DNA of 63,563 nt. Origin: an uncultured Clostridia bacterium (GTDB taxonomy: Bacteria > Bacillota > Clostridia > TANB77 > CAG-508). The stretch is taken from the NCBI GenBank assembly GCA_934133175.1, contig CAKPAX010000006.1, forward strand, positions 1 to 63,563. Direction: 5' to 3'. Under the pieces are notes generated by a model, which was not told where the DNA came from, did not search any database, and saw only the letters and a program-made list of their open reading frames with translations. Positions within the stretch are counted from its first letter, which is position 1; each line of letters starts with the position of its first letter. The translations under genes and the position numbers were made by a program. Of this stretch, positions 38,329 through 41,367 are shown one piece after another.

Positions 38329-38460
38329 AGTTAATATATATTATTTTTCAAATGCCGCGTAGCGAACAACCGGAGCGTAAGCGAAGGGCGAATGGAGCAG
38401 CCTTCCCGAGGGATTCCGAGGACTGCGACAACAAGGCATAAAAAATAATATATATTAACT
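38329..38460. repeat. G+C-rich 82-nt conserved core (38355..38436) at the apex of an A+T hairpin, copy 2
   Basis: Same orientation as copy 1. 20-bp perfect stem 38329..38348 / 38441..38460 plus a 5-bp closing helix ATGCC/GGCAT. Confidence 0.85.
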
Positions 38461-38464
38461 AGTA

Positions 38465-38512
38465 TATAATAAAAAAGCACATAATATGATTTTTAACATC
38501 AATATTATATGC
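38465..38512 (-). terminator. rho-independent terminator of uvrA
   Basis: Minus strand: GCATATAATATTGAT gttaaaa ATCATATTATGTGC followed by TTTTTTATT. Confidence 0.7.
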
Positions 38513-38529
38513 TTTAATCTATTTAAAAA

Positions 38530-41367
38530 TTACTGTTCTAAATATTTTTTTAAAAACTTACCAGTATAACTTCTTTCATTTTTACAAATTTGTTCAGGAG
38601 TTCCTATAGCAACTACCTCTCCTCCATTGTCTCCACCTTCTGGTCCTAAATCTATTATATAATCTGCTGTTTTTATTAAATCTAAATTATGTTCTATAAC
38701 TATAATTGTGTTTCCTGTATCGACTAATCTTTGTAATATATCAATTAATTTATGAACATCTGCAATATGAAGTCCAGTAGTTGGTTCATCCAAAATATAT
38801 AAAGTCTTTCCTGTAGCTCTTTTCGATAATTCTGTAGCTAGTTTTACTCTTTGAGCTTCTCCTCCTGATAAAGTTGTTGAAGGTTGTCCTAATTTTATAT
38901 ACCCTAATCCTACGTCATTTAAAGTTTGAATTTTATTTTTTATTTTAGGAATTTTATCAAAAAATTCTAATGCTTCTTCAACTGTCATATCTAAAACATC
39001 TGCAATATTTTTTCCTTTATATTTTACTTCTAGTGTTTCATGATTATATCTTTTTCCTTTACATACTTCACAAGGTACATATATATCTGGCAAAAAATGC
39101 ATTTCTATTTTATGGACTCCATCACCATTACAAGATTCACATCTTCCCCCTGCAACATTAAAACTAAATCTTCCCTTTGAATATCCTCTAAGTTTTGCTT
39201 CATTTGTTTCGGCAAATATATCTCTTATTAAATCAAATACTCCAGTATAAGTTGCTGGATTTGAACGAGGAGTTCTTCCTATTGGTGATTGATCTATATT
39301 TATAATTTTATCAATATTTGATATTCCTTTTATTTCACTGCACTTTCCTGGCTTTTCATTTGAACCATTTAATTCTTTTGCAATTGTTTTATATAGTATT
39401 TCATTTACTAAAGTACTTTTTCCTGATCCAGATACTCCTGTAACACAATTAAATACGCCTAAAGGGAATTTTACAGATATATTTTTTAAGTTGTTTTCTG
39501 TTGCTTTACATACTTCAATACATTTATTTTTTAAAGGTTTTCTCCTTGTTTTTGGAACTGATATTTTTCTTCTTCCACTTAAATAATCGCCTGTAACAGA
39601 ATTTGGTGAAAGTTTAATTTCTTCTGCAGTTCCTTGTGCCATTACATTTCCACCATGCACACCAGCCCCTGGCCCTATATCTATAATTTGATCTGCTGCA
39701 TACATAGTATCTTCATCATGTTCTACAACAATTAAAGTATTTCCTAAATCTCTTAATTTTTTTAAAGTTGCTAATAATTTATCATTATCTCTTTGGTGTA
39801 ATCCAATACTTGGTTCATCTAAAATATATAAAACTCCTGTTAATCCAGAACCAATTTGAGTTGCCAAACGAATTCTTTGAGCTTCTCCTCCTGATAATGT
39901 TCCTGCACTTCTTGATAATGTTAAATATTCTAATCCAACATCAATTAAGAATTGTAATCTTTGATCTATTTCTTTTAAAATTAATTCAGATATCATTTTT
40001 TCTGTTTTATTTAATTTTAAATTTCTTAAAAATTCTTGCATTTTTCTAACAGACATATCTGTTAGTTCATTTATATTTACATCATTTATTTTTATAGAAA
40101 GTATTTCTTTTTTTAACCTTGCTCCATTACATGTTGGACAATGAGAATTACTCATATACATTTCATAAAAATCTCTCATACCTTGGGATTTAGTTTCATT
40201 ATGTCTTCTATCTAATGTAGGAAGCACCCCTTCAAATGGTGCTGTAAATTTTCTTATTCCAGCAGGTGATTCGTATTCAAAGTCTATTTTTTCATCACCT
40301 GTACCATATAATATTTTTTCCATAAAGTCTCTAGGTAATTTTTTAATAGGTTTACTAATATCTACTCCATAATGTCTTCCTATGCTTTCAAAATACATTT
40401 TGGCCATTGTTTCGCCCTTTTTCATTGTACTAGATCCAAAAGCTTTTACACCATCATATAATGTTTTATTTTTATCAGGTATTATTAAATCTTCATCCAT
40501 TTTCATTAAATAACCTATTCCTGTACATTCTGGACAAGCTCCAAATGGATTGTTAAAAGAAAACATTCTAGGTGTTAATTCCGGAAAACTAAACCCACAA
40601 TTAGGGCAAGCATAATTACAACTATATAATATTGGTTCTTTTCCTTGAACATCTATTAAAACTAATTTATCTGCATATTTTAAAGATAATTCCACGGATT
40701 CTGTTAGTCTGCTTCTTATTTCTGGTTTAATAACTAATCTGTCTACAACTAATTCTATATCATGTTTCTTTTTTCTATCTAGTTCTATATCATCAGAAAG
40801 TTCATATATTTGTCCATCAATTCTAACTCTTACAAAACCTTCTTTTTGATATTCTTCTAATTGTTTTTTATATTCTCCCTTTTTTCCTCTAACTACTGGT
40901 GCTAAAACTTGTATTTTTGTACCTTCTTCTAATTTTAAAACATTATCTACTATTTGATCTAATGTTTGTTTTTCTATTTTTTTATGACAATTTGGGCAAT
41001 ATGGTACACCTATTCTTGCATATAAAAGTCTTATATAATCATATATTTCTGTAACTGTTCCAACAGTTGAACGAGGATTTTTTGAAGTTGTTTTTTGATC
41101 AATTGAAATTGCAGGTGATAAACCTTCAATTGACTCTACATCTGGTTTTTCCATTAAACCTAAAAATTGTCTTGCATATGAAGATAAACTTTCTACATAT
41201 CTTCTTTGCCCTTCAGCATATAAAGTGTCAAAGGCTAATGAAGATTTTCCTGAACCAGAAAGACCTGTAATTACAACTAATTTATCTCTAGGAATTTCTA
41301 TATTTATATTTTTTAAATTGTGTTCCTTTGCACCTTTTATTATTATTTTGTCATTCATATTTTTCAC
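38530..41367 (-). CDS. uvrA: excinuclease ABC subunit A
   Basis: Two ABC modules ([14 protein letters not shown]; [13 protein letters not shown]; LSGGEAQR twice) and Cys4 zinc modules (CPNC...CPEC; CESC...CEVC). Confidence 0.98.

What the first reader, a model, noticed from the sequence alone, without database searches (positions are those of the whole stretch)
38329..38460. Second copy of the G+C-rich apical element, between the uvrA terminator and the alarmone-synthetase promoter
This copy has the same orientation as copy 1. A 20-bp perfect A+T stem (38329..38348 with 38441..38460), a small asymmetric internal loop and the closing helix ATGCC/GGCAT carry the same core.

The two substitutions relative to copy 1 are:
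- A to G in the inner tetraloop (CGAA becomes CGAG);
- G to A, creating a C-A mismatch in the GCAGCC/GGCTGC helix. This one does not support that helix, and I state that openly.

Unlike copy 1, this hairpin is not followed by a U-run on either strand. uvrA already has its own separate terminator at 38465..38512, so the structure is not simply a terminator.

Near-identity of the cores against divergent flanks argues for either recent spread or strong selection on the core. Both copies lie within ~10-70 nt downstream of a minus-strand gene end (ytvI, uvrA).
Basis: seen in the sequence. Interest (0 to 1): 0.7.

Follow-up and report, generated by a model that had tools for sequence, protein, structure and literature searches.

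The report
Small palindromic insertion with conserved G+C core
The hairpin is real and is one copy of a previously undescribed small non-coding repeat of uncultured gut Clostridia: an inserted, dispensable, slowly decaying element whose G+C-rich centre carries a strictly conserved motif of unknown function.

Summary
Window 38328-38461 is a 21-bp perfect A+T stalk, a closing helix ATGCC/GGCAT and an 80-nt G+C-rich core. The core differs at 2 positions from copy 1 (32509-32588).

It is not a terminator and it is not old intergenic DNA:
- Two sister species lack it at both loci.
- Within the species there are two independent deletion alleles at this locus.
- The whole copy-1 unit lies in opposite orientations in different strains.
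- Related elements sit at unrelated intergenic sites in three other uncultured Clostridia MAGs.

All members share one plan: a long stalk specific to each copy; a closing helix ending in C-G; a conserved 5' module (GCGYAGCG-NN-CAA-CCGGAGCGNAAGCGAAGG-GCGAA); a variable hairpin; a junction ending YAA.

Across 16 distinct alleles the 18-nt CCGGAGCGTAAGCGAAGG never varies, while 13 of 36 positions in the variable hairpin do.

Nothing matches in Rfam, plasmid or phage records, or papers. No transposase, reverse transcriptase or recombinase gene lies beside any copy.

My best reading is a non-autonomous mobile element whose conserved junction is a cis signal read in folded single-stranded form. A processed small RNA gene is the main rival. 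No expression data were available.

The parts
38305..38462 (+). Whole inserted unit of copy 2 (about 157 nt): 5' leader plus hairpin
   Evidence: Alignment with the sister-species spacer (L058) shows this stretch as an insertion between the uvrA terminator tail and the -35 box of the alarmone-synthetase promoter. Boundaries are good to about 3 nt.
38305..38327 (+). 5' leader AATTTTATAGTTTGTTTTTTAAT. It begins with AATTTTATA(A/G)T, as the copy-1 unit does, and contains a -10-like TATAGT (38310-38315)
   Evidence: Absent from the sister species. Copy 1 carries a matching leader that inverts together with its hairpin. The promoter-like match TTAATA-18-TATAGT at 38286-38315 is no more than expected in A+T-rich DNA (6 sites found, 4.0 expected).
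38328..38348 (+). 5' arm of the stalk (21 nt)
   Evidence: Perfect complement of 38441-38461.
38441..38461 (+). 3' arm of the stalk (21 nt)
38352..38356 (+). Closing helix, 5' strand ATGCC. It pairs with GGCAT 38435-38439, and the innermost pair is C-G in every family member
   Evidence: Six different closing-helix sequences, all paired.
38357..38369 (+). Junction strand J1/2, GCGTAGCGAACAA (family consensus GCGYAGCG-NN-CAA)
   Evidence: Alignment A2. 4 of 13 positions vary among alleles.
38370..38387 (+). Invariant 18-nt CCGGAGCGTAAGCGAAGG. Proposed hairpin P2: CC/GG, then a GGA:GAA purine loop, then GC/GC, then a GUAA loop
   Evidence: 0 of 18 positions vary in 16 alleles. It is identical in 4 MAG species apart from GUAA>GCAA in L017 and L019. 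A shortened but isosteric version occurs in L013b. An alternative pairing is not excluded.
38388..38393 (+). Junction strand J2/3, GCGAAT
38394..38429 (+). Variable hairpin P3 (GGA-GCAGCCTTC...GAGGACTGC-GAC). In this copy it carries the C-A mismatch at 38422
   Evidence: 13 of 36 positions vary among alleles. In other species the sequence at this position is completely different but paired (5 different base helices).
38430..38434 (+). End of junction strand J3/1 (AACAA). The family ends this strand in YAA before the closing G
   Evidence: Invariant among alleles.
38471..38512 (-). uvrA intrinsic terminator. It is separate from the element
   Evidence: Fold -17.8 kcal/mol, z = -5.1, followed by U6. 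An equivalent hairpin with a different sequence is kept in the sister species that lacks the element.
38277..38306 (-). Alarmone-synthetase promoter TTCACA-18-TATATT. It is not supplied by the element
   Evidence: Scanner match. The same boxes and spacing are conserved in the sister species without the element.
32445..32612 (+). Copy 1 unit (leader 32449-32481, stalk 32482-32503 and 32591-32612, core 32509-32588)
   Evidence: This stretch is inverted as a block relative to its flanking genes in strain L015 and in L022-L024, at 96.5% identity. It is absent from sister species L069-L071, whose spacer is 27 nt.

Best explanation
Copy 2 is an insertion of a small, non-autonomous, low-copy mobile element. 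It is one of a family of palindromic intergenic repeats in uncultured gut Clostridia.

The element folds as a single strand into a three-way junction on a long A+T stalk. The parts held constant are the junction strands and the 18-nt CCGGAGCGNAAGCGAAGG. I take these to be the cis-acting signal read by an enzyme encoded elsewhere in the genome. The stalk, the closing helix and the variable hairpin only need to pair.

Once inserted, a copy does nothing essential for its neighbours. It decays by G/C-to-A/T transitions in its unconstrained hairpin and by deletions favoured by the palindrome.

Shown here:
- insertion relative to sister species;
- other copies at unrelated sites;
- deletion alleles and opposite-orientation alleles;
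- conserved architecture with helices that covary;
- uneven constraint along the core;
- independence from the uvrA terminator and from the alarmone-synthetase promoter.

Inferred, not shown:
- that spread is by transposition rather than by repeated horizontal acquisition;
- that a trans-acting enzyme exists;
- that the intermediate is single-stranded (DNA or RNA).
For: Insertion
- Sister species with 72-75% identical alarmone synthetase have a uvrA-to-synthetase spacer that keeps the terminator and the TTCACA-18-TATATT promoter but lacks the 157 nt.
- Sister species have only a 27-nt terminator hairpin where copy 1 lies.

Instability and dispensability
- L005 lacks 128 bp between two TATATA direct repeats (window 38335-38462). 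It is nested among filled strains, not an outgroup.
- L065 has an independent deletion of about 92 nt that removes the 5' arm and the conserved module.

Mobility or rearrangement
- The copy-1 unit lies in opposite orientations in different strains, with the same unit ends.

Family
- Nine loci in four MAG species lie between housekeeping genes with no shared neighbour.
- Only two copies exist in the window (covariance model, filters off). The species' representative genome has two exact matches.

Architecture
- Six different closing helices and five different P3 base helices are all paired. The closing pair is always C-G and J3/1 always ends in YAA.

Constraint
- P2 varies at 0 of 18 positions against 13 of 36 in P3 (Fisher p = 0.0024).
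- 10 of 17 substitutions are G/C-to-A/T transitions.

Not a known RNA family or replicon sequence
- Rfam gives nothing, even at E <= 10. Plasmid and phage records give only chance 21-mers. No paper holds the motif.
Against: - No transposase, recombinase or reverse transcriptase gene lies within about 3 kb of any copy. None could be looked for genome-wide.
- There are no recognisable target-site duplications.
- There are only 2 to 4 copies per genome.
- The two copies in this genome have cores 97.5% identical but stalks only about 75-80% alike in the inner 20 bp and unrelated further out. A simple recent copy-and-paste of the whole unit does not explain that.
- The L005 empty allele is a slippage deletion, not a precise excision.
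- Conserved unpaired junction strands and G-A-rich loops are what one would expect of a functional RNA.
Confidence: 0.5

Rival explanations
1. It is a small structured RNA gene that has spread horizontally. It is transcribed in the + sense, from the -10-like box in its own leader or by read-through. The core is released by RNase III cutting the 21-25-bp A-U stalk. The conserved three-way junction would then be the working part: protein binding, or possibly catalysis.
For: - A three-way junction with conserved, purine-rich unpaired strands and helices that covary.
- An invariant 18-nt motif with tandem G-A potential and a GNRA-type loop, GUAA or GCAA.
- The + strand folds more stably than the - strand in 6 of 7 members.
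- The leader travels with the hairpin at both loci, and both leaders start with AATTTTATA(A/G)T.
- A stalk of more than 20 bp is the usual RNase III substrate length (established knowledge).
- A near-identical hairpin lies in the sense strand between cistrons in G+C-rich phage contigs.
Against: - No expression data could be obtained.
- Loci are not syntenic between species, sister species lack the element, and deletion alleles including loss of the conserved module survive in the population.
- Copy 1 is tolerated in either orientation.
- The core alone is not more stable than shuffles.
- The promoter-like matches are at chance level.
- Substitutions in P3 give G-U in the + sense and in the - sense about equally.
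Confidence: 0.27
2. It is a DNA site for a site-specific recombinase (an att-like or inversion/resolution site). The 18-nt motif would be the imperfectly symmetric crossover region.
For: - The copy-1 unit is found in both orientations.
- One contig (L079) joins ytvI to the synthetase gene through a hybrid of copy 1 and copy 2.
- The same hairpin lies directly upstream of a serine recombinase gene in two phage contigs.
Against: - The inverted block includes the leader and both arms. It is not a segment lying between two sites.
- The two orientation alleles differ by 3.5%, about as much as their flanks, so this is not rapid switching.
- L079 may be an assembly chimera across an 80-nt repeat.
- No recombinase gene lies near any copy.
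- Covariation in P3 and in the closing helix is not needed for a duplex site.
Confidence: 0.08
3. It is an orphan retron-like msr-msd RNA used by a reverse transcriptase encoded elsewhere.
For: It has the general retron RNA plan: complementary 5' and 3' ends, a short conserved stem-loop region, then one variable long hairpin (PMC8632793). An invariant G follows the closing stem directly.
Against: No reverse transcriptase gene lies next to any of nine copies. The stalk is far longer than retron a1/a2 repeats. Nothing explains why the whole unit is inserted at new sites.
Confidence: 0.04
4. It is a local regulatory or termination structure for uvrA or the alarmone-synthetase gene, or it is ordinary spacer DNA.
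For: It lies between a terminator and a promoter. Copy 1, flanked by an A-run and a T-run, probably now acts as the bidirectional terminator of its convergent genes.
Against: - Copy 2 has no T-run on either strand.
- uvrA keeps its own terminator, and the synthetase promoter is intact and conserved without the element.
- Strains without the element exist.
- The same core occurs in unrelated contexts.
Confidence: 0.04

Closest known systems
REPINs / REP sequences with RAYT transposases (PMC3116915)
   Same: Short, non-coding, hairpin-forming repeats in intergenic DNA. They are non-autonomous and are thought to be moved by a single-copy enzyme that reads folded single-stranded DNA. They persist over long periods.
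   Different: In a REPIN the two arms (the REPs) are the conserved part and the loop is free. Here the apex is conserved and the stalk is specific to each copy. REPINs number tens to hundreds per genome, against 2-4 here. REPINs are known mainly from Proteobacteria. No RAYT gene could be looked for.
Bacterial MITE-like repeats (Neisseria Correia elements, pneumococcal BOX and RUP; own knowledge)
   Same: Elements of 100-200 bp that fold into long stem-loops when transcribed. They show presence/absence polymorphism between strains. BOX is modular with a variable middle. Correia transcripts are cut by RNase III.
   Different: Those have conserved terminal inverted repeats and target-site duplications (TA for Correia and RUP) and high copy number. 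None of these features is seen here.
Retron msr-msd non-coding RNA (PMC8632793)
   Same: The 5' and 3' ends pair. A short conserved structured region is followed by one variable long hairpin. A conserved G lies at the foot of the terminal stem.
   Different: Retron RNA genes lie beside their reverse transcriptase gene. None is present at nine loci.
G+C clusters of yeast mitochondrial genomes (own knowledge)
   Same: Short G+C-rich palindromic mobile elements scattered in very A+T-rich spacers, with polymorphism between strains.
   Different: A different kingdom and a different sequence. Those are 30-50 bp without a long A+T stalk, and there are hundreds of copies.
Hairpin motif at cistron junctions of G+C-rich phage contigs
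   Same: They share GCGAAC-NN-CCGGAGCGNAAGCGAAGGGC, 26 of 28 positions, with the same helix / GGA:GAA loop / GC:GC / GNAA layout.
   Different: There it lies in the sense strand between terminase subunit genes or just before a serine recombinase gene. It is preceded by two other hairpins, has no stalk, and occurs in 63-70% G+C DNA. Homology versus convergence is open.

Membership tests
Intrinsic (Rho-independent) terminator | G+C-containing hairpin followed directly by a T-run on the transcribed strand | tested here: not met
   No T-run follows the copy-2 hairpin on either strand. uvrA has a separate hairpin plus U6.
Any described RNA family (Rfam 15) | Score at or above the family threshold, or any match at E <= 10 | tested here: not met
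   No match in the whole window at gathering thresholds, and none in 38250-38550 at E <= 10.
MITE | Terminal inverted repeats conserved between copies | tested here: not met
   The outer stalks of copy 1 and copy 2 are unrelated and the inner 20 bp are about 75-80% alike. Stalks are conserved only between L013a and L013b, and the inner arms only among the chicken-type copies.
MITE | Target-site duplication flanking the element | tested here: not met
   No direct repeat lies at the unit boundaries as defined by the sister-species alignment and by the inversion. The TATATA repeat around the L005 deletion lies partly inside the stalk.
MITE | A related autonomous element with a transposase in the same genome | not testable with these tools
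   Whole genomes of the carriers could not be read. No transposase lies within about 3 kb of any copy.
REPIN/REP | Two conserved REP arms in inverted orientation around a variable spacer | tested here: not met
   The pattern is the reverse: a conserved apex on variable arms.
REPIN/REP | A RAYT gene in the genome, usually flanked by REPs | not testable with these tools
   No genome-wide gene search was possible for these MAGs.
Retron | Non-coding RNA with paired ends, a conserved msr stem-loop and a variable msd hairpin | tested here: inconclusive
   The plan is compatible (PMC8632793), but it is generic.
Retron | Reverse transcriptase gene adjacent to the RNA gene | tested here: not met
   Neighbours are housekeeping genes at all loci.
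Invertible promoter switch (inverton) | Both orientations with otherwise identical sequence, flanking inverted repeats at the break points, and an invertase gene | tested here: not met
   Both orientations exist, but in different samples, with 3.5% divergence and different flank lengths. No invertase gene was recognised by inspecting the window's ORF list; those proteins were not run against Pfam.
Protein-coding small ORF | Conserved reading frame with a start codon and ribosome-binding site | tested here: not met
   Read directly from the sequences: the ATG after GAAGGGCGA opens frames of 3 to 33 codons with unrelated products in different members, and L013a has no start there.

The most novel reading that the evidence does not exclude
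The conserved three-way junction could be a new class of functional RNA, for example a self-cleaving ribozyme or the RNA partner of a nuclease, reverse transcriptase or recombinase. It would be carried on an RNase III processing stalk so that it is released from whatever transcript it lands in. Its CCGGAGC-GNAA-GCGAAGG hairpin would be the same module that lies between terminase or recombinase cistrons in G+C-rich phages.
Probability: 0.18. Interest if true: 0.8.

Novelty: new variant of a known kind. Interest (0 to 1): 0.5.

Why it matters
Small non-coding repeats are well studied in Proteobacteria, Neisseria and streptococci. They are hardly studied at all in the uncultured, very A+T-rich Clostridia of animal guts.

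This family reverses the usual layout: the apex is conserved and the arms are free. It persists at only a few copies per genome across hosts in human, chicken, rabbit and rumen samples, and it keeps an 18-nt motif unchanged against strong G/C-to-A/T mutation pressure. Something therefore reads that motif.

In practical terms:
- The element breaks short-read assemblies (Logan contigs end inside the core).
- It may create chimeric joins.
- It is a handy strain marker for this species.

Tried and rejected
**Database and literature searches with no result**
- Rfam at curated thresholds and at E <= 10: nothing.
- blastn of three family members against PLSDB plasmids and of the window core against INPHARED phages: only chance 21-26-mers inside coding genes.
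- Literature search for the motif as a string and for descriptive terms: nothing relevant.

**Ideas tested and dropped**
- Stalk arms as inverted copies of the target flank. The L005 empty allele keeps part of one arm, which suggested this. I rejected it because the sister species lacks both arms and the leader and because L005 is nested among filled strains. L005 is therefore a slippage deletion between TATATA repeats.
- Insertion of the core into a pre-existing terminator hairpin. The sister-species hairpin at the copy-1 site is unrelated to the stalk.
- Strand of action from G-U pairs. Substitutions give wobble pairs in either sense about equally.
- GUAA>GCAA as proof of a GNRA loop. The same change also fits an alternative helix GCGY/GCGY predicted by the energy model, so the fold of the 5' module stays open.
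- Frequent gene conversion between the two copies. Alleles of copy 1 and copy 2 on the same contigs do not co-vary.
- A small ORF in the core. The frames are not conserved.
- The extra DNA in the synthetase-to-cmk spacer of some strains. It is an unrelated small gene.
- A search for further long hairpins in the window: only these two have large structured loops.

Full report
**1. Observation**

- TAGTTAATATATATTATTTTT (38328-38348) is the perfect complement of 38441-38461.
- An asymmetric loop (CAA against A) leads to ATGCC/GGCAT.
- That helix encloses an 80-nt core of 58% G+C in a genome of about 25% G+C.
- The 151-nt stretch folds at -49.8 kcal/mol, z = -6.6.

The stability comes from the stalk. 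The core alone is not more stable than its shuffles.

A 46-nt exact repeat of the core lies at 32509-32554 on the same strand, against none expected by chance. The two cores differ at 38410 and 38422 only, and the closing helix differs by one compensated pair.

No T-run follows the hairpin. uvrA has its own hairpin plus U6 on the minus strand.

**2. Organism and population**

The flanking alarmone-synthetase protein is found in many human-gut metagenome contigs. The species' representative genome is an uncultured Clostridia MAG (L014 and L015).

Across about 45 contigs the element is present at this locus in nearly all strains. There are two exceptions.
- L005 lacks 128 bp between two TATATA direct repeats, equivalent to window 38335-38462. 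It keeps the outer part of one arm. Its flanks place it inside the diversity of filled strains. It is therefore a deletion, not an ancestral empty site.
- L065 has a different deletion of about 92 nt. It removes the 5' arm and the conserved module.

**3. Sister species**

- Copy-2 locus. Contigs whose synthetase is 72-75% identical (L057, L058) keep the uvrA terminator and the synthetase promoter TTCACA-18-TATATT. They have nothing where window 38305-38462 lies. The inserted unit is therefore about 157 nt: a 23-nt leader plus the hairpin.
- Copy-1 locus. One sister species has only a 27-nt terminator hairpin between the convergent genes. Another has a different 124-nt spacer with its own G+C-rich hairpins.

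**4. Copy 1 occurs in both orientations**

Window 32445-32612 (leader plus hairpin) is inverted as a block in L015 and L022-L024 relative to the same flanking genes. Identity is 96.5%, similar to the flanks.

In both orientations the unit starts with AATTTTATAAT and ends with GACAATT. The copy-2 unit starts with AATTTTATAGT.

The flanks differ slightly in length between the two forms. Independent insertions and an old imprecise inversion are both possible.

**5. The family**

| Source | Scan | Loci |
|---|---|---|
| Chicken, rabbit and rumen MAGs | Species-representative genomes, invariant 21-mer | L011, L016; L012; L013 |
| One JGI metagenome | Looser pattern | L017-L019 |
| Rumen MAG contig | Covariance model of the 5' module | L013b, a diverged second copy |
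| Window | Same model, filters off | Only the two known copies |

Neighbouring genes are housekeeping genes with nothing in common, and the elements lie in either sense relative to them.

**6. Common plan**

- A long stalk of A+T whose sequence is specific to the copy or to the species.
- A closing helix: six different sequences, all paired, always ending in C-G.
- J1/2: GCGYAGCG-NN-CAA.
- The motif CCGGAGCGNAAGCGAAGG.
- J2/3: GCGAA(U).
- A variable hairpin P3. Its base helix has five unrelated sequences, all paired. Its length runs from 30 to about 110 nt.
- J3/1 ending in YAA.

In L013b the motif is shortened to C-GA-GC-AUA-GC-GA-G. This keeps the layout helix / G-A mismatches / GC:GC / small loop.

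The energy model prefers a different pairing of the 5' module (GCGY with GCGY). That pairing is also compatible with the U/C variation seen. I therefore treat the stalk, the closing helix and P3 as established, and the fold of the module as open.

**7. Constraint**

Over 16 distinct cores, 19 of 80 positions vary:

| Part | Variable positions |
|---|---|
| 18-nt motif (P2) | 0 of 18 |
| End of J3/1 plus the closing GG | 0 of 7 |
| J1/2 | 4 of 13 |
| J2/3 | 2 of 6 |
| P3 | 13 of 36 |

The contrast between the motif and P3 gives Fisher p = 0.0024.

Ten of 17 substitutions are G/C-to-A/T transitions, with G>A outnumbering C>T by 8 to 2. This fits mutation pressure in an A+T-rich genome acting on an unconstrained G+C-rich hairpin.

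The motif is thus under purifying selection while much of the rest of this copy drifts.

**8. What it is not**

- Not a terminator at this locus.
- Not part of the synthetase promoter.
- Not in Rfam.
- Not in plasmid or phage records.
- Not found in papers.
- Not coding.
- Not next to any transposase, recombinase or reverse transcriptase gene.

**9. Interpretation**

The following fit a dispensable, mobile or horizontally spreading element better than a host RNA gene:
- gain relative to sister species;
- non-syntenic relatives;
- tolerance of either orientation;
- surviving deletion alleles.

Long-term conservation of the junction and motif across members whose stalks and P3 are unrelated means those bases are read by something. 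I favour a cis signal for a trans-acting enzyme acting on a folded single strand (confidence about 0.5).

The main rival (about 0.27) is a small RNA released from the stalk by RNase III. It would explain the conserved unpaired purine-rich strands and the leader with a -10-like box that travels with the hairpin. It cannot be tested here, because no read data were available.

One puzzle remains under both readings. The two copies in one genome have nearly identical cores but clearly diverged stalks.

**10. An unexplained lead**

The motif and its 5' neighbour (GCGAAC-NN-CCGGAGCGNAAGCGAAGGGC, 26 of 28 positions) recur in G+C-rich phage contigs. There the motif lies in the sense strand at the junction of the terminase subunit genes, and in two contigs directly before a serine recombinase gene. 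It sits next to two other hairpins that covary.

The 18-mer alone would be expected by chance about 19 times in that collection. The extra matches at fixed offsets would not be. Whether this is a shared structural module or convergence is open.

**11. Verdict**

This is a real and previously undescribed family. It is related in kind to bacterial palindromic intergenic repeats but has an inverted conservation pattern. Copy 2 is a passenger insertion in decay. Interest is moderate. It would be high if the core proves to be a functional RNA.

Noticed in passing
L079 (Hadza gut contig), upstream of the synthetase gene: ytvI is joined to the synthetase gene through a hybrid element: the copy-1 3' arm side plus a copy-1-like core plus the copy-2 5' arm side. 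This is either recombination between the two direct copies 5.8 kb apart (a tandem duplication or a circle junction) or an assembly chimera across the 80-nt repeat.
   Followed up: partly
L022-L031, L066-L068, L075, L076, L080, L085 (Logan contigs): Short-read contigs end inside the core at both loci. This is expected if the near-identical 80-nt core is a repeat that the assembler cannot bridge.
   Followed up: partly
L072 2047-2170 (a sister species, at the copy-1 site): A different 124-nt spacer occupies the same intergenic site. It has two adjacent G+C-rich hairpins (GTGGC-TTC-GCCAC and GGGCGATT-AAA-ATCGCCC) enclosed by the stem GAAAAGTG/CACTTC. It is unrelated in sequence to the element studied. 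The site may be a hot spot for small structured insertions.
   Followed up: no
L032, L033, L037-L039, L041, L042, L044, L045, L047, L048, L050-L055 (IMG/VR contigs, 63-70% G+C): A conserved run of three hairpins, two of which covary, lies at the junction of the small and large terminase subunit genes. Its last hairpin also appears just before a serine recombinase gene that follows a gene ending ...ITGTRWNGWVFFGL. There is no Rfam match. It shares 26 of 28 positions with the Clostridial module.
   Followed up: partly
L036 12836-12853 (-), phage contig of 43% G+C: CAGCGAG-CCGGAGCGTAAGCGAAGG-CGAG lies in a region of about 1 kb that appears non-coding. This is a longer match to the module than the 18-mer used to find it.
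   Followed up: no
Window 37269-37548 (spacer between the synthetase gene and cmk) and the same place in L060-L063, L065, L067, L077-L079: Some strains carry an extra gene of 72-88 codons here, with its own TTGACA-type promoter and terminator. The window strain lacks it. All strains have a short antisense ORF encoding a lysine/asparagine-rich peptide (MSEKNSKKNNKGNKNN...).
   Followed up: partly
L013 1376-1394, 2195-2239, 2440-2457: A second repeat, GTTAC(A/C)GGTTAATGGTTT, lies about 20 nt outside each of the two element copies that flank a PrsW-family protease gene. It also forms a palindrome of its own after L013b.
   Followed up: no
Window 32474-32481 and 32613-32622: Copy 1 is flanked by an A-run on one side and a T-run on the other. 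It replaces the simple 27-nt bidirectional terminator of the sister species, so it probably now terminates both convergent genes.
   Followed up: partly
Core alleles at both loci (window 38357-38436 and 32509-32588): Substitutions on the + strand are strongly skewed: G>A 8 against C>T 2, and four of the G>A changes are in CGA contexts. This is consistent with cytosine deamination on the minus strand, which is the G-rich and presumably leading strand here.
   Followed up: no
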